In this document: positions 1 to 46,512 of the stretch, one piece after another
Layout: every line of letters starts with the position of its first letter
Position numbering within the stretch: position 1 is the first letter of the stretch
IMG/VR virus record: IMGVR_UViG_3300032285_001029
Span: 32,001 to 96,000 of that record
DNA length: 64,000 nucleotides
Strand: one strand, 5' to 3'
From: a virus
Position numbers and translations under genes: made by a program
The notes under the pieces: generated by a model
Told to the model about the DNA's origin: nothing
Seen by the model: only the letters and a program-made list of their open reading frames with translations
The model's database searches: none

Positions 1-298
1 GAACAACTACGCAGTGTAGTGGAAGATTACAACTCTCGCTAATCGCTGCACGTATTTGTGTGCTAGTTGCTGGATATGACGTAACTATATCAAATAATGT
101 TACGCTAATATTCTTGTGATCAGGAAAATCTGAGTGATTTTCTGCAATTGGTAAACTTTTTCCAGAACTGCATTTTGCGCATTGAAACTGCGATAATGCT
201 GCCTGAATGTCCTTTGCAGTACACTTGCCATCTGCGATTTTAATCTTAAATTCGTAGATTCTGTGGCTTTCTTGTAAGTACGAGGTAAATGGTTTCAT
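1..298 (-). CDS. Hypothetical protein, runs off the window start; N-terminus resembles a capsid-targeting/prohead-protease-cleaved leader
   Basis: Not in ORF track. ATG at 298 reads MKPFTSYLQESHRIYEFKIKIADGKC... and is open to position 1. AGGA RBS and TAAATA (316-321) lie upstream. Confidence 0.75.
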   Translation of the reverse strand, partial: MKPFTSYLQESHRIYEFKIKIADGKCTAKDIQAALSQFQCAKCSSGKSLPIAENHSDFPDHKNISVTLFDIVTSYPATSTQIRAAISESCNLPLHCVVV

Positions 299-318
299 AA
301 GTCAATCCTATACTATAT

Positions 319-795
319 TTATTTCATATTCTTTAATTTTTCAAGTAGACTGTTGCGATCTGACACAACAAATCCTTCACCATTTACAGTAATACCCTTG
401 TCCTCTGTAACAGCATCTTGATCTAACTTTTGCTTTTTAAGCTGTAAATCGATCATTTTTAGCTTTTTATCGATTTTAGCTGACTTTGCATCTATAGCAT
501 TTTTTAACATTGCACCAGCTACTTCAAAGATTCGAGCACTATATCTTGCTTCTACATTCATACCTAAATCAATTAAATCGTCGTATGCATTCGTAGCTCG
601 CAGGGCTAGTTCATCAAATTCAGCATCTGCTAGATCTCCTAGTCCTTTTACTTGCGGTAAACTGGCTGAAATTTTATCAAATTCTGCCATGTCTCTAAGA
701 AAGGGTTCGGGTTTAGAAGGAGCAGAAGCCTTTTCTTCTGATTTAATAATTTTTTTACTTTCAGGTAAATTGAGTAATTCTTCAAGTTTTTTCAT
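319..795 (-). CDS. Putative terminase small subunit (gp16-like)
   Basis: 158 aa helical protein. RIFEVAGAMLKNAIDAK...IDLQLKKQKL and a C-terminal VVSDRNSLLEKLK resemble the T4-like small terminase pattern. Lies next to gp4. Confidence 0.5.
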   Translation of the reverse strand: MKKLEELLNLPESKKIIKSEEKASAPSKPEPFLRDMAEFDKISASLPQVKGLGDLADAEFDELALRATNAYDDLIDLGMNVEARYSARIFEVAGAMLKNAIDAKSAKIDKKLKMIDLQLKKQKLDQDAVTEDKGITVNGEGFVVSDRNSLLEKLKNMK

Positions 796-20500: not shown

Positions 20501-21707
20501 TATTCTGTCCCTGTTGCAATGAGCTAGTTGATCCGTACACCCAACATTCAACCGTAAATCCGCCAGTACCAAATCGTAAACTAGTATTACCAGTCTGTAC
20601 ATCCCATACCTGCATATAGGCATCTACGTTCCAGAAATTTAAGCTGTGTGCGCCGTTGCCGGTTAATAAAGTTGTTTGATTACTAACGATAGGTGTGGCA
20701 GTTCTGTCTACATACAAGAAAGGACCGTCACGATATCTGAACACATTATTGTTAGTAACAACAGTTCTATTGCCGCCTGCGTTGAATGGAATATCGTCGT
20801 GATGCGGTTTCCCACCACTTTGATAAAATACTGTGTTTGCATCTGAACCAATTGGTCCGCTTGGCATACTAACAGTGCCAGCTACACCTGTTCTAATTCT
20901 AAGATCGTATATACGTCCTTGGAAAGACACTGTAGCACCAGTTGCTGCTGATCGATCTACGCCAACATATAATGGGTTAGTATCTGCAAAGTTTTGACCC
21001 GAAGTACCGGTAATATAGTTTGCACCGCTAGTGACATTATTGCCACAATACAGTGTAGTGCCCGATCGATAAATGTGAATAAAATACCAACGATCACGTT
21101 CTAAAACGGTACCGTTAGTAGTTGTGCTTCCAGTACCGTTAGCATCAAAAAAGAATAGTTGATAAGACGTATTAATACCAATAACCCAACCGGTATTATT
21201 ACCTGCTGTTACGCCAGTACCGGATCCTTTGCCCATAACGTAATACTGATTAGCATCTTGTTTACGTAGTTTGATCCAAAAAGAAATGTCGAAGTTACCA
21301 CTGCCAAAGCGTAAGGCAGCTGCATCACTTACAGTGTAGTAACCATTTTCATAAAAATCACTACACCAGTCAGTATACCGTGGACCAAAATGTGTTGCAA
21401 TCGGCGCTCGTTGATAAGCATTGATCGTTGTATAAGTGTCCCAGTTATTACCAGACTGATCTTTTATTAAATGATTTGCAACATCCGAATCCTGTAGATG
21501 AACTCTAACAGTATTATAATAAGGATCTGTATTTCTAGCCTGAGGCCACGTCATTGGTGGAGTATACTTATGAAATGCATCAACGATCGAGCCTTCATCA
21601 AGTTTACTGCCGACTACATCATCTAGGTTATTAGTTCCAGATCTATTATAGTTCTTAAGATTTAATTTACGTCCAATCAGGCCGCTATTTCTTCTAGTTC
21701 TTGACAT
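17559..21707 (-). CDS. Multi-LamG/ConA-like lectin-domain virion protein, paralog A
   Basis: FTVECW...WYHIAASR...YVNG repeats; N-terminus MSRTRRNSGLIG matches paralog B. Confidence 0.8.
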   Translation of the reverse strand: MSRTRRNSGLIGRKLNLKNYNRSGTNNLDDVVGSKLDEGSIVDAFHKYTPPMTWPQARNTDPYYNTVRVHLQDSDVANHLIKDQSGNNWDTYTTINAYQRAPIATHFGPRYTDWCSDFYENGYYTVSDAAALRFGSGNFDISFWIKLRKQDANQYYVMGKGSGTGVTAGNNTGWVIGINTSYQLFFFDANGTGSTTTNGTVLERDRWYFIHIYRSGTTLYCGNNVTSGANYITGTSGQNFADTNPLYVGVDRSAATGATVSFQGRIYDLRIRTGVAGTVSMPSGPIGSDANTVFYQSGGKPHHDDIPFNAGGNRTVVTNNNVFRYRDGPFLYVDRTATPIVSNQTTLLTGNGAHSLNFWNVDAYMQVWDVQTGNTSLRFGTGGFTVECWVYGSTSSLQQGQNNGIIGKGSGNTSSGSGWSLWVDSSGYVRWDDASQAINCSPNNPIRFGGWYHIAASRVGTAANQFYIYVNGNLTYQGTVSTDYSGTETMVIGNSRNNQYSNWNGYICGLRLSNTGRYSGSGSPYNVELSTFKDSSMAVDANTVYLIGTTGTQDPANGGSHYRDAGQSGCAPVRHSSEIITNYNPYSRTGHSAFPNRDTNTKLVVTQNGSNFAFSTNNFSVEMWIMPHWLDQDNTTFRTLWCTQAAYSDAGLWLRRSFRKSYELHGNNNIIIATWEDFSGSNIWNHILVQRVNGNLAIYVNGRKRAETIYTTTITCPSGRFYIGNCYSSNHRTDSGATTGFSDIRVVNGSAPYASGNYNPNYIEVPRNPLTAVSNCTLLISALNSGFYDASGQQQRVEPGGPNDPANPYSFEIYSVSYGPYQGIQDWDRTKQMFGQAVDTARGMDAYGPVRGDSTYPDYSWITRLTNHNPWTIECWHWVYMTQIGAPGPGNNYASLYTATSGGHEGWRIIVHQSNTSASYCDITFEWWTAHNSGVQRMYSSSNYLRNIASGYAWWHIAVCWDNTKGSKLAIFVNGYRVATSGTFTQGQKMWNTYRLQHSGQGTGPVRISTTARYNNDSGTYTMPTTRWAYDQYTYSLIDVDEPFANKAGAAVGVMQYGVLPSYKYKRFGNASMKFGQKNPSLLCERILAQHWGQYNYLMDFRINDCTMECWAMYWDSTAGGPGTGAQGRALWQYSNNLIVMINSSGYWRFLNGNSTNPANGTFSGNSAYSTGYDYNPSTYYASTTTSGTFDHLVLMRRGGEWYFYINGIEAFIMFGTGMQTTGDQGHPDYVSSPGTTTINIAHDTYSQSGISWAGFIQDFRVSAIARYETRAKRFTPITFTVSSSSGAIITTTTSLNNLCVMTQPVTFASNFGNIVSSTTYYITNVFDNNLTVATTIGGVPVQVGTTTGQSIVATTQDKTVSAMCHAQTDTFALPTALFPSY

Positions 21708-23275: not shown

Positions 23276-26200
23276 TTATCGTTGCATAAAGAATCCCATA
23301 GCGACCGGTGCCCCGTCAATACCGCCTGTGAAATTCATCTTAGCTGTTACTTTTATTTGTCCACCAGATGTAGTACTGATGGTATTACCTGCTACATATA
23401 TAACACCTGCTGTTAACGTGTTAACATTCAATTGACTTTGACCGCCACCAATCTGCGATGTAATATAACTCTTAATTGCCTTTTGTGTTGGAACAATATT
23501 ATCACTGTTAGCAGTAAAATACGGATCTGTTGAGAACTGTGTAATTACTGCACTGGCAACGCCAACACTAACACTACCAAGTTGCAAGCTCTGTAGTCCT
23601 GATAAGTTAAACGCACTAGCGTTCAATGTAGCAGTACCTGTAGCCTGTTGTACTCCAAATAAGTTACCAACGTTGAAGTTACCATCTTGGTCAGTACTTG
23701 TAAAGAATACTCGTCCACCGACATTTGCATAAGTCTGATTTGCAGTGATAGCGGTAGTTGTATCTACATTCGGATAGTTAGTTGTTACTTGATTACCAGT
23801 TCCAATATATAAGAAATCGTGACCTGTTAATCGAACTTGACTATATTTTAATCTTGTTGTAATTGTATCACCATGCGCTGGAGCATTTGCTACACTTAAA
23901 CTTGGATTAATTTGGAATGTAGCTGTATAATTTCCTAAACTTCCTAAAAGATTTGTAACTGATACTAGTTTAAACCAAGTATTTGGAATACTAGCAAACT
24001 GCACATTTGCACCTGCAGTCGGCTGTGAATATAAACCAGATATTGATATAAACGTACTTGGTTGATACAAATCTGAATAACCGTCACCGGATACACTAGC
24101 AACTGCAGCAGTATTAGCTGTTCCTCGATTACTAAATGTTGGATTAGCTAATGCGCCGACACCCATTCTAACTCTTGTTGATGCTGTTTTAACTTTGTTA
24201 GGATCAGTTTGAGTTATAATCGGGCCTGCTCTATAACTAGCTGTCAGCCCAGTTCCTGTTGATAATGAAACTGCTGTTGCACTTCCTGCAGTTGCAGATA
24301 CTTTAAAACTTGTATTAGTAACGATAGTTGATCCAATAACATAATACGTAGTATTAGTAATTAAACCATATGAATCTAAACCAGTAAATTCAATTGGTTG
24401 AGAATCTGCTAAATTTCGTGTACTTGATGTTGTAATAACATTTGTACTGGTAGTAGTTGCTGTAATACTGCCGTAAGGATAACCAGAACCAGGTTCAATC
24501 ATTCTGATTTCAGTAATTGCTCCAGATGCAGCTTTCATTCTACCTTGTGCAGTTGCTCCAGTAAATATGCTAGTTGCCGCTGTTCCACTAGTATTTGCTA
24601 CACTTGCCCACATTGGATAATTGCTAATACTACCAAATACAATGCCTTTCCAGTTGATGCTTCCAGAAAGTGTTCTTAATGTCCAGTTAATTCCGTCTGG
24701 GCTAGTAGCACAGGTACTTGTGCCTTGGGCAATTGCTATGAACAGTCCTTGTCCATATGCAACTCTTGTCCATGTTAAACTTGATGAAAGGATACTTGTT
24801 GTTGCGCCGCTACATGATGGAGCAGCAGTCCATGTTGCGCCTGCACCGTCGATACTGTATGCAACAGCACCACTAGCAGCAAGAGCTACAAATCTTCCAT
24901 TGCCGTAAGCAATGCTGGTCCAAGTTGTACTGGTAGGCATATTTCCACCTGCAGCCCAAACACCTGCGGTATATACTGCGGTAGTCTGAGATCCAGTTGC
25001 TACAGCAACAAATATACTGTTACCAAATGCAACACCGGACCATGTGCCTGCACCTAATGATGTAATTGCTGTAGTAGTCCAAGTATTACCATTAGCTGTA
25101 ATTGATGCTGTTCCTGCACCGCCTACTGCCATCCAAACTGGACCGCCGCCTTGAACACCGAATGTAATATCTGCATAAGTTCCTGCAGGTACGTTACCTG
25201 AACCTGTTGACCAACTACTTCCTAGGTTTGCCAGTGTTTGATATGATGCTGCTGCTCCGCCGCTGGCAGGAACAGCTATGAACTTTGCATTTGTATCTAC
25301 AATAGTTACTGTAGGTTGCGATGTATAACCAGTTCCGCCGTTGTTGCCGACTGCAATACTGGCAACACCATTATTACTTAATGTAGCTGTTGCTGTTGCT
25401 TGATTGCTAGATCCACCGCCTGACACGGTAACTGTAGGTGCAGTTGTGTAATTTTTACCATAAGTGTTAACAGTAATTGATGTAATGATATCGGTTCTTG
25501 CAGCCACAGTTGGTGCTACACCGTACGAGGAACCACCGACAGTTACAGTAACTTGTGTAATTGCACCGTTAAGAACAACGGCTGTTGCTGTGGCACCCGA
25601 TCCACCGCTTACTGCTGTGAATGCGATTGACGGTGATGTTGTATAACCAGCACCGCCGTTAACAACTGTTACGCTAACAACTTGTCCTGCTGTTGCACCA
25701 CTGCCTAATACTGCTGTGAGAACAGCACCACTTCCGCCTAAACCGCCAACAACTGCGGTTGCTGTTGCGCCTTCACCGCCGCCATATTGTATACCCATCC
25801 ATGTAGTATTAGTTACTGCGCCTGCACTACCCCAAGATGTACCATTAGTACTGTATGCGGTAACTGTACCGCTAGTATTAATAGCAACGTATGCACCAGC
25901 ACCAAAAGTTACATCTGTATAAGCTGCACTTGGTACAGTTAATGCTGTACTAGTAAATCCTGGACCTGTATATGTAATACGTGGTTCAATTAAGTATGTT
26001 GTAGTTAAATCTAATGTAGCAGATATTGTAGTTCCAGGAACAACATGATCCCATCCAGCTGCATAGAATGTTACTGACTGAGCCGTAGTAGTTGTAATTG
26101 CAGTAGTTAACGCAGCACCACCACTAGTTGCAGATACATTAAATGTAGTTGCACTAGCAATTGCCTGAACATAATACACTACCCCTGCTGTTAATCCACC

Positions 26201-29200
26201 TACAGTGGTTGCTACATAGAATGGCATAGTTACATACAATGTTGCAGTGCTTGCTACTGTCACTGTACTTGGGCTACCTTGTGTTGTTGCTGTAATTGTT
26301 AATGTAGTAAATGATTCTTTATAAACTGTAGCTACTTTACTACCGTTGCTATATGTTAGTATTGCAGCAGTCTGTCCTACACCTGTACCAGCTGTAATGT
26401 TGATTCGCATGCCAACATAAGCTGTACTTAATGATGTATCTGCAGCACTAACTGTAATACTCACTCTGTCACCAGTCTGTGCTGTACTCGCAGCGGTAAC
26501 ATAACTTGTACCGCCTACGCTAGTTGTAGTAGCATCACCGTTGTCAGTAAGTCTTGTTTCAAACACTGCATTATCACGGAATTCATCGCCGATGGCCGCG
26601 GCATTGTAGCCCGTGCCACTGATAGTATATGCAGCGTTGGAGTAATTAGTACCTGCATTTTGATACTCAAGTCTTAATACTTTATTAGAGCCATCTGTGA
26701 ATACGTTGGTTATGTATGCCTGACTTGCATGATTATTTAATGTTGCATAGATCGGTGTTTCTGTACTATCAACACCTTCGGCGATAACACCATATGTACC
26801 ATATGAGCTATTACCATTAGTAGCACGAATACGTCCACCTAATTCTGCTAGATATCCTGCGTAATTATAGTACGAGAATACAGAAACAGCTTCTACTAAT
26901 GAGTTGTGACCAGTACACCATATACCGATACCATCACTGATAATTGTTGTATAGTCATTAGATACGATACTTCTGTTTCCACCGGCGTGTAATGCACCGT
27001 CTATCTTTTGTCCTATACAACCTGTTCCAAATACAGAAAGATTTTGAGCATAAGGACTTCTTGCGTAAATCCATGCATTGCTATCGTTTGGTCCAAATCC
27101 TGGATCTAAGCTTGCGTAAGCACCAGCTGTTGGACGCTTTGTACCATAACTGTTTGCAGCACTCAATGATCCTGTTAATCCACTTAAGGTCATATTTCTT
27201 AAACCAGTAGCATTTCTTAACAAGAACATGTTGCTTAACAATGATCCGTTTATATCGTTTAAATATAAATCTGCAGTACGTAGACTTCTATAGTTACCTG
27301 GATACTGCATGTCGTAAACAATAGCATCGACCCAGTCTCGTATGTACTGTCGACAGGTTGTTCCACTAAATGAATAACGTACAGTTAGACTTGGACTTGA
27401 AACATTAGATGTAATTGTTACAGCAGTCGTTGATCCTTGCGTTGCAGTTACTGAAAATGCTGTACTTGCTAAATTTGCTGCTAACACGTAGTAAGTTGTA
27501 CCTGTTGTAATACCGCCAGCACTAGTACCTGTGAATACTACAGGATCGCCTGCAACAAAATTATGTGCAGAACTAGTGTTAATTAAATTATTTGTTATCG
27601 CTAAACTACTAACAGTACCACCATAACTTTGAGTGATATAAGCAGATGCTTCATATGCTAAAAATTCTTTATTAGCACGAATAATTTCGGCACCTTTAGT
27701 TGTACTTAATGATGTTGAATAAGTTAATGTACCTGCATACTGAACATTTTGTCCAGATATAAATTGTGTACCGTTAGCATAATAAATGATGTCGTCAATA
27801 ATTGAACTAGCTCTAGCTACTGCTCCTACACCTGCAATTGGTTTGATCTTATTCAATAAGAAATTAATCATACCTAATTCAGCAGTTTTTTGACTTGAAA
27901 TTACAGTCTGTGCAGAAGTATTAGTAAATCCTACAGAGTATGCATAGTATCTTCTTGCTGCGATTGCACTGGCAGCATTACTGCTATAGGTCAAATCGTT
28001 TGCAATTGCAGTTGCAATATATCCAACGTCTCTGCTACAGGTAGCGGAGTTAAATGACAAACTTGGATAATATTTTTGAACCCAAACAACACCATCGGAC
28101 TGAATTTCTGACAAACGTTCTACTACTGCAGCGTATGCCGTATTAAGTAATGTAGTTGCTCCAGCAGAATAAAATGCAACTGCTGTATCGGCTGTACCGT
28201 TGTTAATCCAGTTGACAACATTCGTAACACGATCTTGTGCAAAACTTGCTGCGTTTGCACTACCAGCTGTACCGCCTGTTACTTGTGTATATGTAACCTG
28301 TCCTGCAGGTGCTGACACAGAGCCTTTTGTAATAACAGTGCTAATTTCGGATTTTAATTCATTGTACATTGCAGCCATTGCTGTTTTACACTGCGCTGCA
28401 GTTTGACTTGTGACTTGAATTGTGAATACTGTATAAGAATAATATTCACTACCTGCAATGTTACTTTGGCTGTTACCACCGTAAATCATGTCATAAACAA
28501 TACCGTCTAAAACACGACCAACCATTGCTTTTACATTAGTTGATGTCAATGCTGTTCTAATAGTGCTGTAGTTATTTGATAGATACTGATCACAGTTAGC
28601 TTGTAAGAAATTATAGTTTTGTATAACTTGTTGTGCGCCATATCCATAGCCAGTTGATACACCAGTAGCATTACCAGTAGTTGTGTAAGCAGTGTTTGTT
28701 ACACTAGATGTGTTATAACCAACAGGCCAAGGCATTACTAAACTTGGAACTGAACCAAGTCCACTGTTAACAATGTTGTACATTACTGTTGAATTATTAA
28801 CAGTACTAGCAACTGCGCTGTAGCCATAAGTTACAGTTAGTGTACCGCCAGTTTGACTCGTTAACGTTACTGCTGTACTAGCATCAGCAACTGGTGTTGC
28901 TGTCGTAATGCTAAATGTTCCGCTACTTATTATAGTTTTAACATAGTAAGTAGTTCCCATAGTTATACCAGCACCCGTTGCCATTGTGCCAGTGCCAGAA
29001 AATACTACAGGCATACCAACAGTCAATGCTGAAGTGTCTGCAACTGTAATATATCCAGGGGATCCTGCTGTTACTGCAGATGCACTAAAACTTGGTGATG
29101 CATAACTTCCAGTATCACCTGCTGCTAGTGTTTTAATCTGTGTTTGCGTATTACCGGTTGTTGGAGTAACTGTTGAGTTACTAATTAAATTAGTTAATAC

Positions 29201-32083: not shown

Positions 32084-35000
32084 TTAACGATGGAACCAGT
32101 GCTTAGTAAAATATAGCCACGATGATTCATTACCGTCTACTCCTCCAGCTGCTCCTTCAATTGACACTTTATTGGCCATTTTTACCGAACTTCCTGGAAT
32201 TCCTTGTGTAACTGTGCTGGTTATAAGATTCTGACCGCCTAATACCACAGTACCTGCGCTTACTTGATTAGTCACCACATTCGATCCGCCTTGACTTAAT
32301 CTATTAGCAATATATGTTCTAATAGCCTTTTGAGTGACAATAACACTGTCACTATTAGCAATTAAGGTAGGATCAGTGCTAATTTGGCTGATAACTACAC
32401 TTTGACTACCTACTGCAATACCGCCTAATGTTAACGATGTTAAACCAGTTAAACCAAATTGGCTGGCACTTAGTGTTACAATACCCGTAGCCTGTTGTAC
32501 TCCAAAGAAACTACCAACTTTGAAGTTACCATCTTGGTCTGTACTAGTGTAAAACACTCGTCCATAATTTATTTCAACCGTTTGATTCTGTGCTTGCAAA
32601 CTAGTGTCAGCTGGAACATCTGGGTAGCCTGATTGGTATTGATCGCCATACCCTATGTTTAAGAAATCATGTCCAGTTAAGCGAACTTGACTATACTTCT
32701 GTCTAATTACTACACTAATAGCATTTGTAGGAGCTAATGCTGTACTTAATGCTGGATTCAAACCAATTATAGCGGTAACATTCGGTGCTGTACTGTTATT
32801 TAAAACAGTAACACTAGTAATTTTATAAATGTTACTGTTACCATTAATAACTAAATCACTACCAACGGATGGCTGGTACGTCATATTTGATAATATTAAG
32901 TTATAGGAATTTTGATAATCTTCGGAATAGCCAGCACCTGAAGTTGTTATAGTTGTAGTGTTTACATTATAACCTACACCTCTGCTTAAGAATATTGGAT
33001 TTGCTAATGAGCCGTTGCCAATAAGCTGAGATGTCACTGCACTCTGTGTAGAGTTTGTATCATATAATGTTAGAGTTGGGGCTGAAGTATAACCTGATCC
33101 TGGTTCCCATGAGGTAAATCCTGTTACAATACCACTTGTTATTGTTGGTCTAGATTTAGGTTTTGCTCCTGCACTGATGTTAGTTACATAATTGTTGCCA
33201 CCTACTGTAACAAATAATCCAGTATATGAATCGTGACCTAACGTGTATGTCATTACAGGAGTTAAAATTGCTGTAGTTCCTGATAAACTATCAGTTACAA
33301 CAATAGTTGGAGTTTCTGTATATCCAACTCCAGCACCTGTTAATGAGAATCCGCTAACCTGACCGCTTGGATTAATAGTTACCGTAGCCGTTGCCTGTTG
33401 TGTTACAAAAGGACCTCCTCCTGTAAATCTCAATGTAGGTGCTACACTATAGCCCGATCCTGAACTGGTTATAGTTATACCTGTTACAGTTCCATAGTTA
33501 ACTGCAGTGTAACCAAACGCCATTGCAGTATAAGTAAACCCAGTTACAGATCTTTGTTTCCATACAATACCGTCTTCGGTGGTATATGCTAAAATATTTG
33601 CATCACGGATTGCAACAAATACACCTTGCCCGTATTCGATGCTAGTTGCCCTGACAACATACGGTGATTGGACCCATGTAATTCCATCTAAGCTATATGC
33701 AGGTTTTGCATTTGCACCTGATGATACAGCAACAAATCTGCCATTACCATAAGACACACTAGACCAAGTTGTGCTAGATGGTAAACCATTACTAGCGACC
33801 CACGTTTGTCCATCTGTACTATATGCCGATGTTGTTCCACCTGATGCAATAGCTACAAAAGTACCTGCGCCAAACGCTAAACTAGTCCAAGTTGTGCTAG
33901 ATGGTAAACTAGCAGCAGACCAAGATTGACCAAAGTTAGTGCTGTATGCAGCTTTATTACTTGACGCAGCATTATCGATTACAACAAACACACCATTACC
34001 ATATTCTACACTGCCCCAAGTTGCTTGACTAGGTAGTGTAGTTTGTCTCCAACTATCTGTTGGTAATGTTGTATAAAGAGCGGTTGAATTTCCTACACCA
34101 CCACTACTTACTAATACCCAATAACCATTGCCGTAGGCTATTCCAGTCCATGTTGCCACTACTGGAAGAGTGATTGACGACCATGTTTCTGCATCTGTTG
34201 AACCAACCAAGTAGCCTATGCCACTCGGAACACCAATCCAATAACCGTCTCCATATCCAATAGCTGTCATCCCAGCACCTTGTGTTGGAAAACTAGGCAG
34301 TGTCTGTGAGAACGAAGGAGCAGAATAAATCGGTCTTGGTTCAACGTAATACGTTGTGGTAGTGTCTAATAACGTAGCAGCAGTGGTTCCTGGAGTAATA
34401 TGATCCCACCCTGATACAACCATCTGCATACTATCGCCGGATGTCCCTACTGAAACTGCCGTTGATCCGCCTGCCGTTGATGCTAGTGTAATTGTGTTTG
34501 TTCCACCTAATGTAACAGTCTTAATATAATAAGTAGTGCCTGCCGTAATACCGGATATGTAGGATGAATTAAACAATGCTGTAGCAGATCCTTTCGATGA
34601 CACTAACAACGTCTTATTAGGAGTTGTAGTAACAGTCATCGATCCACTGCCTGTAGTTAATGTCAAATCACTACCAGTAGTTTCGACATTTAGATAACCA
34701 GTTGCTGTTGATAACGTAGCTACTGTACCTGTAGTAACTGTTTTTCCTGTCAATGTTCCTGAAGTTTGTGTTGTTAAAGTTACATCGGAACCTGTAGTGT
34801 TTACGGTTACTATAGAACTAGTATTTGCAGTGACTAATGGTAAATCACCGCCGCCTGATGTAGCACTAATCTTGATTGTAGTCGGAGTTAGTATAGCAGA
34901 AATATAGTATACAGTTCCCGAAACAATGTTACCAACAGTTTCACCGTAGAATATAATAGGATTGTTTAGTACAAAATTCAAGGAAGACAGGACAGTGATT

Positions 35001-38000
35001 ATATTAGTACCAGAAGTTGTACCAGTCATTTGTGTTGATAAAATACTTGTACTAACTGTAAATGTTGATCCTGAAGGAATCTTACTTATGTAATACTGTG
35101 TAGTTGTTGACAATCCACTACCTACTAATCCTGTACCACTAAATGTGATAGGATACAAAGGAACTAAACTAGTAGTTGTACTAGTAATATAGTTTGTTGT
35201 ACTAGCGGTTGCAGTACAAGTAATATTTAATATGGCGCTACTTGTTGCAACTTGGAATTGGGTAGAGTTAGGAATGTTAGACACATAATAAATTGTATCT
35301 ACAGATAGACCTCCCATTGTAATTCCTACAAACTTCACAGGATTACCTATAACAAATCCGCTAGTTGATGTACATGTAATTAAGTTTGCACCTACTAGTG
35401 TTGCTGAGGCTATTGTCTGATTTAATGTATTACTAATTGTAATATGTGAACTGTCAGGAATCAAACTAATATAATATTTTGTGTTTAATTGTAAGCCGCC
35501 TATCGCAGTACCTGTAAAAATAATCGGAAATAACGAAACTATGCCAGCTGTCGTTGTTACCGTTAACTGATTACTTACGGCAGTTGTTGCCGAAGCTGTA
35601 GTAGTTGTTGTACCTGACGATATTGTAAAATAATGACTATCCTTTATGTCATTAACATAATAAATTGTTCCTGCGCTAGTTCCGCCTAACGCTGCACCTG
35701 TAAACTGAATTTGCATGTTAGGTTTCATGTATGTCGTAGAATCTGCATACATGTAGCTAGTCCCGGAAACTACATTCATTATCATACTGCCAGTGCCTGT
35801 GACTAAAAATACAGGAGTTCCGTATATCGATGTCGAAACTTGGAAAGTATTTCCTGATATGTTTGTAATATAATAGGTAAAATTGTTAATAACACCGCCA
35901 TACAGTCCGCTATATTCGAACGTGACTGGCATGTTTTGATACAACTGAGTGATATTAGTAGTTGTCATTGTGTTAGTCTGACCACCCGTAACCGAAGTAA
36001 TTACAACGGTTGCTTTGGAAGTAGACGTAACTGTTGCTGAATATACTGTTGGATAGAATGATACCGGCATGTCTGTATACAACAGATTAGTATCAGCCGA
36101 ACTATCTAAATATAATTCATTTGTTGACGATGTGCTACCAGTAATTTTTACTGGATCATATGATTCTTTAGCGACGTAAGCATATCCATTCACATCATCG
36201 TAATAGGAAATTAGTCCGTATTGACCTACTCCTGTACCACTAGTTAAAAATACTCGCAAACCTAAATATGTGCTACTTGCAGCCGTTTCCGATCCGGCCA
36301 ACGTGACATACGATGTGTTTCCGCCTTGTGCATTGTTGCTGCTAGTTTTGTAACCGGCACCACCAACTTGATCTCCTGTACCTGGATCAATAATTCTACT
36401 TTGATAAACTGCACCTGATCTAATTTCATTAGCAACACTTGATACACCGCTACCTGATCCTGTTACTAGAAAGTCTGCGTATGCGCTGTATTTTTGAGTA
36501 TCAGTGCGTAGATAAAACTTAGGTGTTGTTTGATACGGATTATGTTCAATTTGTGGACCATACACATAGTTATATGCAGATACTGCAGTTGCATATCCTG
36601 CAACATAGACGTAGAAGGTACATAAATTATTAAGACCTGATACATCGTAAGTGGTGAAGTAAAGTCTATTCCAACTGTTATTACCTTTAATAATCCCAAC
36701 ATTTAACGGAGTTATTGCACCGGTTAAGGTAGTTGTATAAGTTAAAGCACTTAGATTGTAATCAATTCTTGTTGTGTTAGAACTTACTCCGCTGAATACA
36801 GTTGACAAAGAAACTGTTGATGCTGTACCGGCTTTAACATAAACACTAAATGTGTATTTTTGTTTAACTGTGTTTGGAACTGTCCCTGTTGCACTAGCAA
36901 CTGTAATTGCTCCTGAAACTGCAGTATCTACGTTAATTGTAATATCATGCAGACCTAATAATCCGCCAACTGTATTACCACTAATTAATATCTTATCGCC
37001 AGTATTGTAACCTGAGCCGCCAACTGGACTTCCTGTAATTGCACTAACTACATACCCTGCTGCTGTTACAGAGATAGTAAACGTAGCACCATTGCCTGTA
37101 CCAATAATATTAGAACCACTACGCCCTGTATAAACGTTACCTGAAGGAGTAATGTTGATTGCTTGGTAAATTGATCCAGAGTTGGCTGCTACATTAGTTT
37201 TGGTCAATTGCCATGCATATAGTCCACCAAATGGATCTGTACTATTTTGTAAGTATGTTACATATGAATCGTCGGCCCAACCAGTTGATGTTAAATTGTT
37301 ACTGTTCTTTAATAGATTAAGTACTTGCTGATTGTAAAACTTACCGTTGTTAGAAAACTGATATTTTAAAACTTGAGCACTTAGCCCTTGTACTGTTTGT
37401 AAAGTTGGAGTAACACCGTAGTATCTATTATACGTCACAGCAGTAATTGGTGTTTCGTTAACGTCAAATCCTTCGGCGATAACACCATATGTACCATATG
37501 AGCTGTTACCATTAGTAGCACGAATACGTCCACCATTTTCTGCAAAATAACCAGCATAACCAAAGTAACTGAAAATACTAACAAGTTCAGTTAATGCACC
37601 GGTATTAGTACACCATGCACCGATACCATCATTTATAATATGAGTATAGTCGTTAGCAACAATAGATTTATTACCGCCGTTATGTAAACTACCATCAATT
37701 TTTAATCCTGTGCATCCTTGACCAAATGAACTTACATTTTGAATGTAAGGAGATTTATAAGAGATCCATACAGTAGTATCAGCTGGTCCTGTTCCTGGAT
37801 CTAAACTTACAAATGCACCGCCAGTTGGACGTTGTGTGCCTAACGAGTTAGTAGTTCCTAACGTGCCTAGTAATCCAGACATTGTCATGTTGCGAATGCC
37901 GCTGCCATTTCTCACATAAAACATATTTGAAATAGCATCGCCGCCTATGACTTGAATAAGTCCACTGCCGCCGAGTAATGTCGATGCTGAACCATTTGGG

Positions 38001-39964
38001 GTTGTACTAATTTTAAATTCTGTATTTGAATCGATACTGACAACATAGTAGGTCGTTCCTACAGCTATATTACTAGTTTCAAATGGAACTAATGTCGAAG
38101 AAACATTATTATTTGAAAGTATAAACTGTATAGGTGCATTTAAGTACATGCCTGCAGTAGTGTCGCAGGTAAATTTACTTGTGGCAGCATCGGACGAAAA
38201 AACAAAAGTATTAATTACTCTACTAGGCCTGACTACAGTACTTCTTAATTCATCTCCTACTAATGCAATACTTGCTGGTACAGTTATAGGAAGTTCTTCG
38301 TTGTATGTTCCTGTTTTGATAAAAATAGTAGCAGGTGCTACAGCATTTGCACAAGCATACTTGATAGTACGCCATGGTTGATCCCATGTAACGCCAAATG
38401 TTGGAGTATCTGTTCCTGTTAACGCTACATAATAGACATTAGGACTAGTTAAGATTCTTTGCCAAGAAGGAGTAGTACCGACAGATTGTAATTGATATGT
38501 TTCAGAACCAATTGCTAATGATGTTCTATTATCTGAACCTGTGGTAGAATTATAAAATAAATCACCCTGACTGCGCAGAGCATTTTGTCTTGCATGTAAC
38601 GTATAAACAGTCCAGTAATTATGACTAGTATCTAAATCAGGCGCAGTTGGTGCGGATGAAGTATGTGGGGCTATGCACATGTAACTGGCATTTTGCCATG
38701 TAACTACATCACCAGCTGTATATGTTGTATTTGTTAGCCAGAAATTTTTATGATAAGCGCCAGGTACTAACAATGACCAGTATGTAGAATTAATTCCTGA
38801 AAATGCAATAGTTTGACCATCAGTTAATGCACCGTCAGGCGCTTTGTCTAATATTACTGTATCGGTACTGACAAGTTGCGATATTTTTTGTCCGCCGGCA
38901 AAATTAGTACTGCCGCCGGCTATAAACATACCTGCTGCTAAACTTGTATTATTAGAAAGTTTGATAGTTGTTCCGCTACTACCGGTTGCAGTGTATGTTT
39001 TTGTTATTGTAGTATTATTCGAAGGATTCTGTCCGGTATTATTTGCAATAGCTCTAAACAATCTTCCATTATAATATACGGTATCGCCTACTCTATAAGA
39101 ATAACTTTGACTCCAATTTGAGGTTATAACATTGAAACCAGGTAGTACTACAGTCCAGTTAGCAGAATTATAATCGGGATCAAATCCTAAATTATTATTA
39201 ATGCTGCTTTTCCAAATGTTACCACCGTATGAAACTAAATCATCTAATTGATATTTTGTAGAAATACTCCATGCACCTTCAAATTGTTGAGCAGGAAGCC
39301 AAAGGCTCCATTTTGCTGTTTCGAAAGTACCAATCGACGTATGATGTGTTGTACAAATATATAAATCTGAGTTTAATTTTACAACATCATTTGCTTTATA
39401 TCTTGTGCCGCTGCTAACAAAGTCGCCTTTGTAATCGATACCGTCATAAATTGAAGTCCATTTACCGATGTCTGTTTCAAGCCCGTAAGTAATGCTAACA
39501 TCGCTAGTATGAGTAGTATTACATTGATATACAATACCGCCATATCTTACTACATCGCCCACGCCGTACGCATGATTAGTTTGCCAGCTAGCATGCCATT
39601 TATATCCTTCAACTAGTAATGTAAATTTTGCTACATCTATTACAGTTGAACTAACATGATAGGTATTACAGACATAAACAGCTCCACCGTATTTTACAAC
39701 ATTACCTGGATTATATTGCTGCCCAACATCCCAATCATACTTGTATTGTGTGCCTGCAATGATTTTTTCCCAGTAGTAGAAGTCTACTGCATCAATAGTA
39801 CCTATAGTAATTAAATCAGTACTAAACACACCGGATGTATGTGCAAATTGACATACAAACGCTTGTCCTTCAAATTCTACAACTGTGTCAATAGCATAGA
39901 AAGTGTCGGTTGCCCATGATCCAACATAATTATATCTTAAACTGCTTATTCTAAACTCAGCCAT
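32084..39964 (-). CDS. Giant modular virion fibre/adhesin protein (2626 aa), paralog B
   Basis: Same scaffold as 23276..32032 (MAEF start, GDELRSTVV, GWDH, YSQVRLTGHDFL, TSTDQDGNF) with different inserted modules. Confidence 0.8.
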   Translation of the reverse strand: MAEFRISSLRYNYVGSWATDTFYAIDTVVEFEGQAFVCQFAHTSGVFSTDLITIGTIDAVDFYYWEKIIAGTQYKYDWDVGQQYNPGNVVKYGGAVYVCNTYHVSSTVIDVAKFTLLVEGYKWHASWQTNHAYGVGDVVRYGGIVYQCNTTHTSDVSITYGLETDIGKWTSIYDGIDYKGDFVSSGTRYKANDVVKLNSDLYICTTHHTSIGTFETAKWSLWLPAQQFEGAWSISTKYQLDDLVSYGGNIWKSSINNNLGFDPDYNSANWTVVLPGFNVITSNWSQSYSYRVGDTVYYNGRLFRAIANNTGQNPSNNTTITKTYTATGSSGTTIKLSNNTSLAAGMFIAGGSTNFAGGQKISQLVSTDTVILDKAPDGALTDGQTIAFSGINSTYWSLLVPGAYHKNFWLTNTTYTAGDVVTWQNASYMCIAPHTSSAPTAPDLDTSHNYWTVYTLHARQNALRSQGDLFYNSTTGSDNRTSLAIGSETYQLQSVGTTPSWQRILTSPNVYYVALTGTDTPTFGVTWDQPWRTIKYACANAVAPATIFIKTGTYNEELPITVPASIALVGDELRSTVVRPSRVINTFVFSSDAATSKFTCDTTAGMYLNAPIQFILSNNNVSSTLVPFETSNIAVGTTYYVVSIDSNTEFKISTTPNGSASTLLGGSGLIQVIGGDAISNMFYVRNGSGIRNMTMSGLLGTLGTTNSLGTQRPTGGAFVSLDPGTGPADTTVWISYKSPYIQNVSSFGQGCTGLKIDGSLHNGGNKSIVANDYTHIINDGIGAWCTNTGALTELVSIFSYFGYAGYFAENGGRIRATNGNSSYGTYGVIAEGFDVNETPITAVTYNRYYGVTPTLQTVQGLSAQVLKYQFSNNGKFYNQQVLNLLKNSNNLTSTGWADDSYVTYLQNSTDPFGGLYAWQLTKTNVAANSGSIYQAINITPSGNVYTGRSGSNIIGTGNGATFTISVTAAGYVVSAITGSPVGGSGYNTGDKILISGNTVGGLLGLHDITINVDTAVSGAITVASATGTVPNTVKQKYTFSVYVKAGTASTVSLSTVFSGVSSNTTRIDYNLSALTYTTTLTGAITPLNVGIIKGNNSWNRLYFTTYDVSGLNNLCTFYVYVAGYATAVSAYNYVYGPQIEHNPYQTTPKFYLRTDTQKYSAYADFLVTGSGSGVSSVANEIRSGAVYQSRIIDPGTGDQVGGAGYKTSSNNAQGGNTSYVTLAGSETAASSTYLGLRVFLTSGTGVGQYGLISYYDDVNGYAYVAKESYDPVKITGSTSSTNELYLDSSADTNLLYTDMPVSFYPTVYSATVTSTSKATVVITSVTGGQTNTMTTTNITQLYQNMPVTFEYSGLYGGVINNFTYYITNISGNTFQVSTSIYGTPVFLVTGTGSMIMNVVSGTSYMYADSTTYMKPNMQIQFTGAALGGTSAGTIYYVNDIKDSHYFTISSGTTTTTASATTAVSNQLTVTTTAGIVSLFPIIFTGTAIGGLQLNTKYYISLIPDSSHITISNTLNQTIASATLVGANLITCTSTSGFVIGNPVKFVGITMGGLSVDTIYYVSNIPNSTQFQVATSSAILNITCTATASTTNYITSTTTSLVPLYPITFSGTGLVGSGLSTTTQYYISKIPSGSTFTVSTSILSTQMTGTTSGTNIITVLSSLNFVLNNPIIFYGETVGNIVSGTVYYISAILTPTTIKISATSGGGDLPLVTANTSSIVTVNTTGSDVTLTTQTSGTLTGKTVTTGTVATLSTATGYLNVETTGSDLTLTTGSGSMTVTTTPNKTLLVSSKGSATALFNSSYISGITAGTTYYIKTVTLGGTNTITLASTAGGSTAVSVGTSGDSMQMVVSGWDHITPGTTAATLLDTTTTYYVEPRPIYSAPSFSQTLPSFPTQGAGMTAIGYGDGYWIGVPSGIGYLVGSTDAETWSSITLPVVATWTGIAYGNGYWVLVSSGGVGNSTALYTTLPTDSWRQTTLPSQATWGSVEYGNGVFVVIDNAASSNKAAYSTNFGQSWSAASLPSSTTWTSLAFGAGTFVAIASGGTTSAYSTDGQTWVASNGLPSSTTWSSVSYGNGRFVAVSSGANAKPAYSLDGITWVQSPYVVRATSIEYGQGVFVAIRDANILAYTTEDGIVWKQRSVTGFTYTAMAFGYTAVNYGTVTGITITSSGSGYSVAPTLRFTGGGPFVTQQATATVTINPSGQVSGFSLTGAGVGYTETPTIVVTDSLSGTTAILTPVMTYTLGHDSYTGLFVTVGGNNYVTNISAGAKPKSRPTITSGIVTGFTSWEPGSGYTSAPTLTLYDTNSTQSAVTSQLIGNGSLANPIFLSRGVGYNVNTTTITTSGAGYSEDYQNSYNLILSNMTYQPSVGSDLVINGNSNIYKITSVTVLNNSTAPNVTAIIGLNPALSTALAPTNAISVVIRQKYSQVRLTGHDFLNIGYGDQYQSGYPDVPADTSLQAQNQTVEINYGRVFYTSTDQDGNFKVGSFFGVQQATGIVTLSASQFGLTGLTSLTLGGIAVGSQSVVISQISTDPTLIANSDSVIVTQKAIRTYIANRLSQGGSNVVTNQVSAGTVVLGGQNLITSTVTQGIPGSSVKMANKVSIEGAAGGVDGNESSWLYFTKHWFHR
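37470..37534. repeat. 65-nt dispersed repeat, copy 2
   Basis: 64/65 nt identical to 26775-26839. Confidence 0.9.
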
Positions 39965-40351: not shown

Positions 40352-40936
40352 TTATACGATTTCTACATAACTTACAACAGCGTCTAAACCACCGGACCCG
40401 TAACTATATACATTAATTGTAGTGCTAGTTCCTAATACCATACGCTCACCACCATTGACTAATTTTAATACTTGATTCTGAGGTATAATCATTTTATATG
40501 CATAATAAGCAGATGTATTTGAATTTGCATTATCAACTAGTTGTACGTTAACTACTTGTAAATCATCTGTACAGTTAACTAGTGCTAGACCTACAACTGT
40601 TATCTTTGCATTACTTGGACTAGTAAGTAAACTAGTAGTTTTGTTTATAATTCCTGTCATGTTGCCTCCATTGCCTGTTCCAACATTAAACGGAGGACCG
40701 CCTAGACTAGTACTTATAGTAATTTCAGTAGAACTTTCAACAGTAATAATGTAATAAGTTCCTGCAATTAAATTTCCAATAGTTGTGCCCAGTACAATAA
40801 GTTCCATTCCTACAGCTAAACCTGTAGTAGAATCAACAGTTACAATATTTCCTACTTGATTAGTATCTGTAATTGTAATTTCTAAACCAGTAGCACCGAT
40901 ATTTGAACTTAATGCATTTTTAAACGTAGTTGCCAT
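40352..40936 (-). CDS. Small adaptor-like protein carrying an inserted ~80-aa module
   Basis: MATTFKN...[TYY module]...TVVGLALVN...NGGERMVL...DAVVSYVEI. Confidence 0.7.
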   Translation of the reverse strand: MATTFKNALSSNIGATGLEITITDTNQVGNIVTVDSTTGLAVGMELIVLGTTIGNLIAGTYYIITVESSTEITISTSLGGPPFNVGTGNGGNMTGIINKTTSLLTSPSNAKITVVGLALVNCTDDLQVVNVQLVDNANSNTSAYYAYKMIIPQNQVLKLVNGGERMVLGTSTTINVYSYGSGGLDAVVSYVEIV

Positions 40937-45306: not shown

Positions 45307-46512
45307 TTAAAATAATACACTAAACAGCAATGCTCTATTTTTTGAAATTAATTCGTCGCTAGTAATTAGATTAGCAAAAAATATTCCGGTCTTTCCTGTT
45401 CCTGTATAAGTCCCTGTATTACTAGCAGACCAAATTTTTGTTGTGCCACTGATACCTGCACCACCTGCATTATCATCTAATCTTAAAACAGAGTTTACTT
45501 CTACATCACCGCTAGTACTAGTTAAAATTAGATTATTGCTTGTAGAATTTTTTACAGTATTTCCAAATATATTTACATTGTCAACATCTAATCCTGCCGA
45601 TGTTATAGTTGCTCTTTGAGTTTCGCTAATATAAAATGTAGTACTAGTATTGTTAGTAGTTACTCTTGATTTTATTGTACCATTTATATAATAGATCGTA
45701 GATACGTCTGCTATACCAGTAGCGTAACTACCAGCAGCAACATATTGTTCAGTCCATTGTTTTGTAACAAGTGTATTTGGATCTACAATATTAGCTGCAT
45801 ATGATGAGGAATTTGTAATTCTTACAACACTAGCAGAATCTTGCATATCTAATAACAGATCACTTCCACCAGAAGTTATAGTTTCTAATTCTAATCCGCT
45901 TAGTACTTCGTCAGCTGTTTTAAATACCCATGAACCATATACTTCTATATAGTTAACAGTTGCAGTCATCGATCCGCTGCCATTAGAAACATGGAATACA
46001 GAACCGCCTAAAATTGTGCTTACTTGTATTTTACTATTGACGCTGTCTATACTTTTAACATAATAAGTTGCACCATTGACTACACTACCGAAAACTGTTC
46101 CCGTAAACACTATAGTACTACCTGCACTGATTGCAGCAACACTGTTTAGTGTAATCCAATAACCAGTAGCAGTTGTTGCAGTAGCAGTATATGCAGTGGT
46201 AGCTAAATGTGTATGAGGTATAGTTTCTTTAAAAAATAACTGGGCGTTAGAATAATCACCGCGATCGACTTCTATACCCGATTGATAGTTTAAAATTGCA
46301 CTTATACCGGGACCAATCTGTCCATTATTAAGTGTGAATATATTATTGCTAATATTGATATTAGTAGATTCAACATTTGTTGACACACCTTTAACATCAA
46401 GATTACCAAGAATATAAACTGTTCCACCATAGTGCAGATCCAACGTGATGTTGCCATCAGGCTGGACCTGTATTCTATAGTTGTCGTCGTCGACTTTTAA
46501 AACTCTTGTCAT
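45307..46512 (-). CDS. Fibre-like structural protein
   Basis: GNLDVKG...N.F.LN.G...SGIEVDRG motif; inserted TYYV module; C-terminus KNRALLFSVLF. Confidence 0.65.
   Translation of the reverse strand: MTRVLKVDDDNYRIQVQPDGNITLDLHYGGTVYILGNLDVKGVSTNVESTNINISNNIFTLNNGQIGPGISAILNYQSGIEVDRGDYSNAQLFFKETIPHTHLATTAYTATATTATGYWITLNSVAAISAGSTIVFTGTVFGSVVNGATYYVKSIDSVNSKIQVSTILGGSVFHVSNGSGSMTATVNYIEVYGSWVFKTADEVLSGLELETITSGGSDLLLDMQDSASVVRITNSSSYAANIVDPNTLVTKQWTEQYVAAGSYATGIADVSTIYYINGTIKSRVTTNNTSTTFYISETQRATITSAGLDVDNVNIFGNTVKNSTSNNLILTSTSGDVEVNSVLRLDDNAGGAGISGTTKIWSASNTGTYTGTGKTGIFFANLITSDELISKNRALLFSVLF

What the first reader, a model, noticed from the sequence alone, without database searches (positions are those of the whole stretch)
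34412..36160. Russian-doll protein: one ~80-aa module inserted into itself up to six levels deep
Seen: between the conserved anchors KES and GWDH, paralog A has one 85-aa module (26057-26311) while paralog B has 583 aa made of seven copies. They are nested, not tandem. Successive copies stop at ...F.(I/V)S and the next begins. The missing C-terminal strands then appear stacked after the innermost complete copy (GSDVTLTTQTSGTLT, GTVATLSTATGYLNV, GSDLTLTTGSGSMTV, PNKTLLVSSKGSATA), followed by the second half of the outermost copy (GITAGTTYYIKTV...). The parse is A[B[C]..[D[E[F[G]]]]]. Inference: an out-and-back chain forming an extendable stalk whose length is set by recursive insertion.
Basis: partly seen in the sequence, partly recalled or inferred. 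Interest (0 to 1): 0.8.

Follow-up and report, generated by a model that had tools for sequence, protein, structure and literature searches.

The report
Self-nested beta-barrel array in phage fibre
A giant virion fibre protein of an uncultured jumbo phage carries seven copies of one small beta-barrel, most of them inserted one inside the next like Russian dolls down to six levels; this is a real and rare architecture, with one solved precedent in cyanobacterial RNA polymerase.

Summary
Residues 1269-1851 of the 2626-aa minus-strand protein (window 34412-36160) contain seven copies of a ~80-aa module. The 2918-aa paralog has a single copy between the same KES and GWDH anchors.

My parse is A[ B, C[D[E[F[G]]]] ]:
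- A is split after its third strand.
- B and G are contiguous.
- C-F stop after strand e, and four ~19-aa hairpins stacked after G supply their missing ends.

Nesting rests on three lines of evidence:
- **Predicted structures.** Two AlphaFold2 models (pLDDT 88 and 92) contain barrels built from distant segments. Structural alignments of 65-72 residues at 2.3-2.9 Å span exactly one truncated copy's start to its predicted returning hairpin.
- **Coupled counts.** Across about 100 homologs, truncated copies and extra hairpins change together (2+2 or 4+4).
- **Mirror order.** By sequence alone, the copies read C,D,E,D,E outward and the hairpins read E,D,E,D,C on the way back.

The seven-module form looks like the five-module form with a two-level unit re-inserted.

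The module is a six-stranded barrel like the E1 FCCH and EF-Tu domain 2 barrels, with no Pfam match.

Function is inferred: a rigid side-arm of adjustable length on the fibre. Its geometry could not be measured.

Closest known analogue: the nested SBHM array (Si3) of cyanobacterial RNA polymerase.

The parts
32084..39964 (-). Gene for the 2626-aa virion fibre protein (P0001) that holds the nested array
   Evidence: ORF, translation. PHROG 9851 'tail fiber protein' at E 1e-136. Pfam CBM_5_12 repeats at the N-terminus.
36038..36160 (-). Outer copy A, first part (strands a-b-c, aa 1269-1309), ending at MPVSFYP
   Evidence: Rejoined with aa 1803-1851, it matches the full-module HMM at 36.5 bits over HMM positions 12-72. 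Strands at model residues 24-30, 35-38 and 52-57.
35765..36037 (-). Copy B (aa 1310-1400), a complete contiguous barrel and first tenant of A's c/d loop
   Evidence: N-half HMM at E 6e-18 plus C-half at E 2e-6. Most PDB barrel matches align to the contiguous model range 69..151; best is Z 8.4, rmsd 2.4 Å, 78 aligned.
35612..35764 (-). Copy C, strands b-e only (aa 1401-1451); level 2, host of D
   Evidence: N-half HMM at E 4e-20. The gap to the next copy is 6 aa. Classified as C-type in 22/22 orthologs.
35426..35611 (-). Copy D, strands a-e only (aa 1452-1513); level 3
   Evidence: N-half HMM at E 9e-20. D-type in 22/22. The equivalent copy in the homolog model forms a barrel spanning 59-61..222.
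35240..35425 (-). Copy E, strands a-e only (aa 1514-1575); level 4
   Evidence: N-half HMM at E 2e-23. Barrel alignment spans model 265..516: 71 aligned, rmsd 2.9 Å (row 44).
35045..35239 (-). Copy F, strands a-e only (aa 1576-1640); level 5; D-type by sequence
   Evidence: N-half HMM at E 2e-16. Barrel alignment spans model 329..497: 67 aligned, rmsd 2.7 Å, 24% identity (row 41). D-type in 21/22.
34796..35044 (-). Copy G (aa 1641-1723), the innermost complete contiguous barrel; level 6; E-type by sequence
   Evidence: HMM hits. Contiguous barrel matches at model 393/394..476/477. E-type in 22/22.
34733..34795 (-). Returning hairpin s1 (aa 1724-1744); closes F
   Evidence: D-type hairpin in 21/22 orthologs. 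It is the end of the F barrel range 329..497. Long strand at model 490-497.
34679..34732 (-). Returning hairpin s2 (aa 1745-1762); closes E
   Evidence: E-type hairpin in 21/22. It is the end of the E barrel range 265..516. Strand at model 506-515.
34625..34678 (-). Returning hairpin s3 (aa 1763-1780); closes D
   Evidence: D-type hairpin in 20/22. Strand at model 524-532. Pairing is inferred from mirror order and from the homolog model.
34559..34624 (-). Returning hairpin s4 (aa 1781-1802); closes C
   Evidence: C-type hairpin in 16/22. Strand at model 542-551. Pairing is inferred; no structural row supports it.
34412..34558 (-). Outer copy A, second part (strands d-e-f-g, aa 1803-1851), running into GWDH
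   Evidence: Rejoins with aa 1269-1309 as a full module. Strands at model 564-570, 576-580 and 598-603.
26057..26311 (-). The single uninterrupted module at the same KES...GWDH position in the 2918-aa paralog (P0002)
   Evidence: The flanks align with P0001 (20/53 and 22/45 identities) around the 85-aa versus 583-aa segments.

Best explanation
The segment is a recursively nested array of one six-stranded beta-barrel module (strands a-e, then an f-g hairpin).

**Architecture.** An outer barrel A sits in the fibre protein at the spot where the paralog has one intact barrel. A's loop between strands c and d carries two tenants: a complete barrel B, and a barrel C. C, D, E and F each have the next barrel inserted between strand e and the closing f-g hairpin. 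The chain therefore runs outward through five half-barrels, completes the innermost barrel G, and returns through four hairpins that close F, E, D and C in that order. It then finishes A.

**Expected mechanics (inferred).** Each pair of neighbouring barrels is joined by two short chain crossings. This should give a stiff multi-barrel side-arm whose two ends re-enter the host protein at one point, so arm length can change without disturbing the rest of the fibre.

**Evolution.** The seven-module form arose from a five-module form when a copy of the two-level unit D[E] was placed inside E.

**Status of each step.**
- Shown: the repeats, the coupled counts and the mirror order.
- Predicted with high confidence: the nested barrels.
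- Inferred, at about 40% confidence each: rigidity, rod shape, tip-to-base folding order, and a role as a spacer or adhesive arm on the virion.
For: - **Repeats.** Six N-half HMM hits at E 6e-18 to 2e-23. The rejoined halves score like contiguous modules.
- **Window protein model.** pLDDT 88, pTM 0.80. Each truncated copy has five strands, and four extra long strands lie at 490-497, 506-515, 524-532 and 542-551.
- **Discontinuous barrels in that model.** Ranges 329..497 (67 aligned, rmsd 2.7 Å) and 265..516 (71 aligned, rmsd 2.9 Å).
- **Independent model.** A five-module homolog at 41-47% identity gives pLDDT 92.3 and pTM 0.88. Three rows span 59-61..222 with 65-72 aligned at rmsd 2.3-2.9 Å.
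- **Second pipeline.** BFVD's own prediction of a 50%-identical UniProt protein superposes on that model at TM 0.95 and rmsd 1.1 Å.
- **Coupled counts.** Homologs with 2 truncated copies have 67-73 aa after the innermost N-part. Those with 4 have 107-111 aa.
- **Mirror order.** Copy types read C,D,E,D,E outward and E,D,E,D,C returning, in 16-22 of 22 orthologs. The nested pairing gives r = 0.83, against r = -0.23 for parallel pairing.
- **Precedent that AlphaFold handles such nests.** For cyanobacterial Si3, the prediction differs from the crystal structure by 1.08 Å (PMC10895346).
Against: - No coordinates, PAE or contact map were available to me. Pairings are read from the first and last aligned residues of structural alignments, not from contacts.
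- No row confirms the C or A barrels.
- All structural evidence is AlphaFold2. There is no experimental structure.
- The two size classes may represent few independent evolutionary events.
- A tree of the flanking regions places seven-module proteins in two or three separate spots, which is unexplained.
- Rod shape, stiffness and function were not tested.
- The tip barrel G is the most conserved copy, which does not fit a fast-evolving receptor-binding tip.
Confidence: 0.82

Rival explanations
1. The region is a tandem array. Each truncated copy folds locally, borrowing the next copy's a-b hairpin as its closing strands. The four hairpins after G form a separate small beta-meander domain.
For: The a-b and f-g hairpins are both Thr-rich and look alike. 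In the related ~32-module proteins (for example P0008), the hairpin after strand e does seem to double as the next copy's first strands.
Against: - Barrel alignments begin at a copy's own a strand and end at a distant hairpin, skipping the inner barrel.
- The hairpins fall into C, D and E types in mirror order.
- The hairpin count tracks the number of truncated copies.
Confidence: 0.08
2. The truncated copies are complemented in parallel order (C with s1, D with s2, E with s3, F with s4), giving a domain-swapped bundle rather than a nest.
For: The counts alone (4 and 4) allow any pairing.
Against: - Parallel pairing gives r = -0.23 between the similarity matrices and ranks 81 of 120.
- s1 is D-type like F, and s4 is C-type like C.
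- The model ranges 329..497 and 265..516 fit F-s1 and E-s2.
Confidence: 0.02
3. The nest is a prediction artefact on a Thr/Ser-rich, low-complexity and largely flexible linker region.
For: The composition is Thr/Ser-rich. BLAST with the low-complexity filter finds nothing in cultured phages.
Against: - Hydrophobic and Gly/Tyr positions are conserved across about 100 homologs at 38-56% identity.
- The HMM E-values are strong.
- pLDDT is 90-96 through the nested part in two models.
- An outside pipeline gives the same fold.
Confidence: 0.03

Closest known systems
Si3 insertion of cyanobacterial RNA polymerase beta' (nested SBHM / hybrid-motif domains)
   Same: One small beta module is repeated about 8 times. 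Several copies are built from distant parts of the chain because later copies are inserted into them. The array is an elongated (150 Å) appendage inserted at one point of a host protein. It is described as a six-level recursive insertion (PMC10895346; PMC13114784).
   Different: The fold is different (SBHM versus a six-stranded FCCH-like barrel), and there is no sequence relation. The host is a cellular enzyme, not a virion protein. In the phage array the insertion site is regular (the e/f loop at every level), and the returning pieces are neat, stackable hairpins in strict mirror order.
E1 FCCH-like / EF-Tu domain 2-like six-stranded barrels used as surface decorations or inserted domains in phage proteins
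   Same: The fold matches:
- UBA1 FCCH 4p22_B: Z 8.4-8.5, rmsd 2.4 Å, 75-76 aligned.
- Phage FCWL1 9jlf_E: Z 8.2-8.4.
- Mystique tail tube 9n71_B: Z 8.3.
- The barrel of the phi92 endosialidase chain 4hiz_A (residues 255-338): Z 7.0-7.1.

FCCH domains face outward on siphophage tail tubes (PMC13576161).
   Different: Those are single copies. Pfam PF16190 does not detect the module by sequence. Z near 8 is at the level the tool flags as possibly just a common arrangement.
Flagellin D0-D3 and birnavirus VP2 base/shell/projection (out-and-back nested domains; from general knowledge)
   Same: The chain runs outward through successive domains and returns, so each domain is made of an N-terminal and a C-terminal piece.
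   Different: In those proteins the nested domains are unrelated folds and there are only 3-4 levels. Here one module is nested in itself.

Membership tests
Recursive (nested) homotypic domain insertion, as in cyanobacterial RNAP Si3 | Several homologous copies of one module in one chain | tested here: met
   Six N-half HMM hits at E 6e-18 to 2e-23, plus the split outer copy.
Recursive (nested) homotypic domain insertion, as in cyanobacterial RNAP Si3 | Copies built from sequence-distant segments with another copy in between | tested here: met
   Met in predicted structures only. Barrel alignments span 329..497 and 265..516 and 59-61..222. There is no experimental structure.
Recursive (nested) homotypic domain insertion, as in cyanobacterial RNAP Si3 | Returning pieces in mirror order of the outgoing pieces | tested here: met
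   Outgoing types C,D,E,D,E; returning types E,D,E,D,C, in 16-22 of 22 orthologs.
Recursive (nested) homotypic domain insertion, as in cyanobacterial RNAP Si3 | SBHM / hybrid-motif fold (needed for homology with Si3 itself) | tested here: inconclusive
   The best fold matches are FCCH / EF-Tu domain 2-type barrels, and no RNAP Si3 chain is among the 50 rows shown. Absence from a list does not exclude it. I treat this as an analogue of Si3, not a member.
Pfam PF16190 E1_FCCH | Sequence match above the curated cut-off (29.5 bits) | tested here: not met
   No hit in P0001 or P0002 at E<=0.1, nor in nine single modules at E<=10. The own-genome scan gives only 13 bits, in other genes.
Pfam PF16190 E1_FCCH | Six-stranded closed antiparallel Greek-key barrel | tested here: met
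   4p22_B residues 215-295: Z 8.4-8.5, rmsd 2.4 Å, 75-76 aligned. DSSP shows six strands per complete copy. An Atlas neighbour cluster carries PF16190 in 73% of its members, score 0.92. This is fold-level similarity only.
PHROG 9851 tail fiber protein (whole protein) | Profile match | tested here: met
   E 1e-136 for P0001 and 7e-132 for P0002. The matched stretches lie outside the nested segment.

The most novel reading that the evidence does not exclude
Nesting depth acts as an evolvable length ruler for a virion side-arm. Whole two-level units can be re-inserted at the tip-most e/f loop, giving quantised, stiff extensions that fold from the tip back to the base. Phages of this group would use depths of 1, 5, 6 or 7 modules to tune the reach of a fibre. 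If so, this would be a general and so far undescribed way for viruses to build rigid rods from a single insertable barrel.
Probability: 0.3. Interest if true: 0.75.

Novelty: new variant of a known kind. Interest (0 to 1): 0.62.

Why it matters
Deep self-nesting of one domain is very rare. The only described and solved case I found is Si3 of cyanobacterial RNA polymerase.

This phage case has several useful features:
- It uses a different fold.
- It has a strikingly regular grammar: the same loop at every level, and hairpins returning in mirror order.
- It offers a natural series of depths: one module in the paralog of the same phage, and five, six or seven in homologs.
- It carries a readable evolutionary trace, the re-insertion of a two-level unit.

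That makes it a clean system for three uses:
- Studying how nested domains fold, and how adjacent homologous domains avoid mispairing.
- Building stiff protein rods whose two ends sit together, so they can be inserted into any loop.
- Improving annotation, because domain callers will report the truncated copies as fragments.

For phage biology, it points to an unannotated barrel family that is used widely in the virion proteins of uncultured jumbo phages.

Tried and rejected
- **Cultured phages.** Megablast and tblastn of the segment and of a single module against 50,697 phage records gave no match, possibly because of the low-complexity filter.
- **IMG/VR.** The search for related loci in viral contigs found no confirmed relative.
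- **PDB by sequence.** The profile search had a best E of 0.11 (a TFIIF motif), which is not significant.
- **Pfam and PHROGs on single modules.** Nothing usable came back.
- **Foldseek of the whole 623-aa model against PDB.** TM scores were about 0.1 (birnavirus VP2 and others), which is meaningless.
- **Hairpin HMM for counting.** Counting hairpins in homologs with a short C-half HMM was too weak and noisy. I replaced it with length bookkeeping and type-specific HMMs.
- **Global alignment of the paralogs with cheap gap extension.** The single module scattered over several copies. Only the flank alignment is informative.
- **Alignment A3.** At 67 full-length rows it was too large for the structure server, so I cut it to 31 rows (A4).
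- **Parsing the ~32-module proteins (P0008-like) as nests by gap length.** This failed. Hairpins there seem to be shared between tandem copies, and the question stays unresolved.
- **Flank tree for the number of gains of the seven-module state.** The result was ambiguous.
Full report
**Where it is**

The window is part of a 141,855-base virus record that CheckV estimates to be 38% complete. Its major capsid protein is 69-72% identical to those of jumbo myoviruses: Sinorhizobium phage Phosso, Vibrio phage 2.275.O and Serratia phage BF.

Two adjacent minus-strand genes encode giant paralogs: P0001 (32084-39964, 2626 aa) and P0002 (23276-32032, 2918 aa). Both match PHROG 9851 'tail fiber protein' (E 1e-136 and 7e-132) and carry N-terminal CBM_5_12 repeats. 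The finding's coordinates correspond exactly to P0001 residues 1269-1851, between KES and GWDH. The paralog has 85 residues between the same anchors.

**The repeats are real**

I describe the module as strands a-b-c-d-e (ending F/I-x-I/V-S) followed by an f-g hairpin. An HMM of the a-e part, built from copies in both paralogs, hits P0001 six times inside the segment at E 6e-18 to 2e-23. It hits P0002 six times as isolated single modules.

- Copies B (1317-1400) and G (1641-1723) are followed by their own f-g hairpin.
- Copies C, D, E and F are followed after only 6-8 residues by the next copy.
- After G come four ~19-aa hairpins (1724-1802).
- Then comes a stretch (1803-1851) that is the d-e-f-g part of a module whose a-b-c part lies at 1269-1309.

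I rejoined these pieces in a script and scored them against an HMM made only from contiguous single modules. All gave full-length matches:

| Copy | Bits |
|---|---|
| A (rejoined) | 36.5 |
| C (rejoined) | 29.9 |
| D (rejoined) | 36.3 |
| E (rejoined) | 55.8 |
| F (rejoined) | 35.4 |
| B (contiguous) | 36.6 |
| G (contiguous) | 50.3 |

The parse is therefore A[ B, C[D[E[F[G]]]] ]: seven copies and six levels. B is a sibling of C rather than a level.

**Predicted structure of the window protein**

I aligned residues 1249-1871 with 23 full-length homologs at 37-56% identity. The AlphaFold2 model has mean pLDDT 88 and pTM 0.80, with 90-96 through the nested part.

DSSP gives six strands for B and G and five strands for each of D-F. 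It also gives four extra long strands at model residues 490-497, 506-515, 524-532 and 542-551, one in each stacked hairpin.

I could not obtain coordinates, so I used the aligned ranges from an all-against-PDB structural search. Most rows match the contiguous barrels B (69..151) and G (394..476). Two rows match a single compact barrel over a long model range:
- 8eci_2: 67 residues, rmsd 2.7 Å, 24% identity, model 329..497.
- 2crv: 71 residues, rmsd 2.9 Å, model 265..516.

These end points coincide within one or two residues with the first strand of F and the end of hairpin s1, and with the first strand of E and the end of hairpin s2. A ~70-residue domain cannot also contain the 80-160 residues in between. 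In the model, these barrels are therefore discontinuous and nested.

**Independent model**

I fetched the gene of a five-module homolog, P0036. I folded its C[D[E]] part (residues 1559-1805) with 30 other five-module proteins as the alignment. The model has pLDDT 92.3 and pTM 0.88.

In the PDB search, three domains aligned over model 59..222, 61..222 and 60..222. These were the Mystique tail-tube domain 9n71_B, 6ywe_C and 1zun_B, with 65-72 residues aligned at rmsd 2.3-2.9 Å. That range runs from D's first strand to D's returning strand and jumps over the contiguous inner barrel at 121-204. In the first search, the same three PDB domains had matched the contiguous copy B.

BFVD's own prediction of a 50%-identical UniProt protein from an uncultured phage superposes on my three-barrel model at TM 0.95 and rmsd 1.1 Å.

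**Sequence-only evidence for nesting**

1. **Coupled counts.** Among about 100 homologs there are two main classes.
   - Four a-e hits (two of them truncated copies), with 67-73 residues between the innermost a-e part and the outer copy's YY motif.
   - Six a-e hits (four of them truncated copies), with 107-111 residues in that interval.

   Each extra truncated copy therefore comes with one extra ~19-aa hairpin.

2. **Mirror order.** HMMs trained on the C, D and E copies and on the C, D and E hairpins of 67 five-module proteins were used to classify the 22 seven-module proteins.
   - Outgoing copies C, D, E, F, G classify as C, D, E, D, E (21-22 of 22).
   - The hairpins after G, in chain order, classify as E, D, E, D, C (16-21 of 22).

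   A mirror order is what a nest gives. A tandem or parallel arrangement would repeat the same order. The correlation of the two similarity matrices is 0.83 for the nested pairing and -0.23 for the parallel one.

The same data show how the deeper form arose. The seven-module array is the five-module array with a copy of the two-level unit D[E] placed inside E.

Other variants also exist:
- P0033 has a full module inserted in B's c/d loop.
- P0093 has an extra complete sibling after B.

**The fold**

The best matches are six-stranded Greek-key barrels:
- UBA1 FCCH domain: Z 8.4-8.5, rmsd 2.4 Å, 75-76 aligned.
- A phage FCWL1 head-to-tail protein: Z 8.2-8.4.
- The Mystique tail-tube outer domain: Z 8.3.
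- The barrel of the phi92 endosialidase chain 4hiz_A (residues 255-338): Z 7.0-7.1.
- EF-Tu domain 2 and its relatives.

FCCH-type barrels are known outward-facing decorations of siphophage tail tubes (PMC13576161). By sequence the module is not a member of Pfam PF16190. The protein atlas places it among unnamed viral clusters, and one neighbour cluster carries PF16190. It is thus an unannotated family with an FCCH-like fold.

The module also occurs once each in the 194-aa and 401-aa proteins of the window, and near the C-ends of the two ~1400-aa LamG proteins.

**How it probably works**

The topology is shown or predicted. The rest of this section is inferred.

- The linkers between a parent's strand e and the child's strand a, and between the child's strand g and the parent's hairpin, are only a few residues long. 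The a and g strands are long (about 10 residues), and pTM is high for the multi-barrel models. Together these suggest a stiff multi-barrel arm.
- Both ends of the arm re-enter the host protein at one point. The arm can therefore lengthen or shorten without changing the rest of the fibre. The paralog pair (1 versus 7 modules) and the homolog classes (5, 6 or 7) show this flexibility.
- G can fold as soon as it is made. F, E, D, C and A can close only as their returning pieces emerge, in that order.
- Whether the arm is a spacer, an adhesive array or a buttress along the fibre is open. The tip barrel is the most conserved copy, which argues against a rapidly changing receptor tip.

**Comparison with what is known**

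The closest known thing is Si3 of cyanobacterial RNA polymerase. It has eight SBHM domains, four of them built from distant segments, forming a 150 Å appendage. AlphaFold agreed with its crystal structure to 1.08 Å (PMC10895346). A 2026 survey of domain insertions singles it out as a six-level recursive insertion (PMC13114784).

The phage array follows the same principle in a different fold and a different kind of protein, and with a more regular grammar. My full-text searches found no description of such nesting in a phage protein.

**Limits**

- All structural evidence is AlphaFold2.
- I had no contact map.
- The C and A barrels rest on sequence evidence only.
- The two depth classes may reflect few evolutionary events.
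- A tree of the flanks scatters the seven-module proteins, which I cannot explain.

Noticed in passing
window 40352-40936 (-), 45307-46512 (-), 12950-17143 (-), 17559-21707 (-): The same barrel module occurs once in the 194-aa protein (E 2e-11) and once in the 401-aa protein (E 2e-8). It also occurs, more weakly, near the C-ends of the two ~1400-aa LamG proteins (E 6e-6 and 2e-5). It behaves as a promiscuous insertable module of this phage's virion proteins.
   Followed up: partly
P0006, P0007, P0008, P0010, P0020 (metagenomic proteins, 2272-2973 aa): These proteins are made almost entirely of about 26-32 copies of the module. In them the hairpin after strand e seems to double as the first strands of the next copy, so they may be tandem or mixed rather than nested. 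I could not resolve their topology.
   Followed up: partly
P0033 (aa ~1745-1840) and P0093 (aa ~1870-1960): Two further ways the array grows. P0033 has a full module inserted into copy B's c/d loop. P0093 has an extra complete sibling module after B.
   Followed up: partly
BFVD entry A0A6J7WSY4 ('Baseplate wedge subunit', uncultured Caudovirales phage): It matches the three-barrel nested model at TMq 0.64 over 284 columns with only 16% identity. This suggests a similar multi-barrel arrangement in an unrelated virion protein.
   Followed up: no
G000:C1:110310-110435 (outside the window; locus L003): A weak FCCH-profile match (13 bits) lies in an open frame of 5149 aa, so the record holds an even larger gene downstream of the window.
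   Followed up: no
window ~33100-34400 (-), P0001 aa ~1860-2290: Directly after GWDH comes a run of ~50-aa repeats with the motif W-x-x-(I/V)-x-Y-G-x-G-x-F-V-A. This looks like a beta-propeller and is present in both paralogs.
   Followed up: no
Flank tree of 83 homologs: Seven-module proteins fall in two or three separate places among five-module proteins, although their arrays are collinear. The cause could be poor resolution, recombination of the array, or repeated gain.
   Followed up: partly
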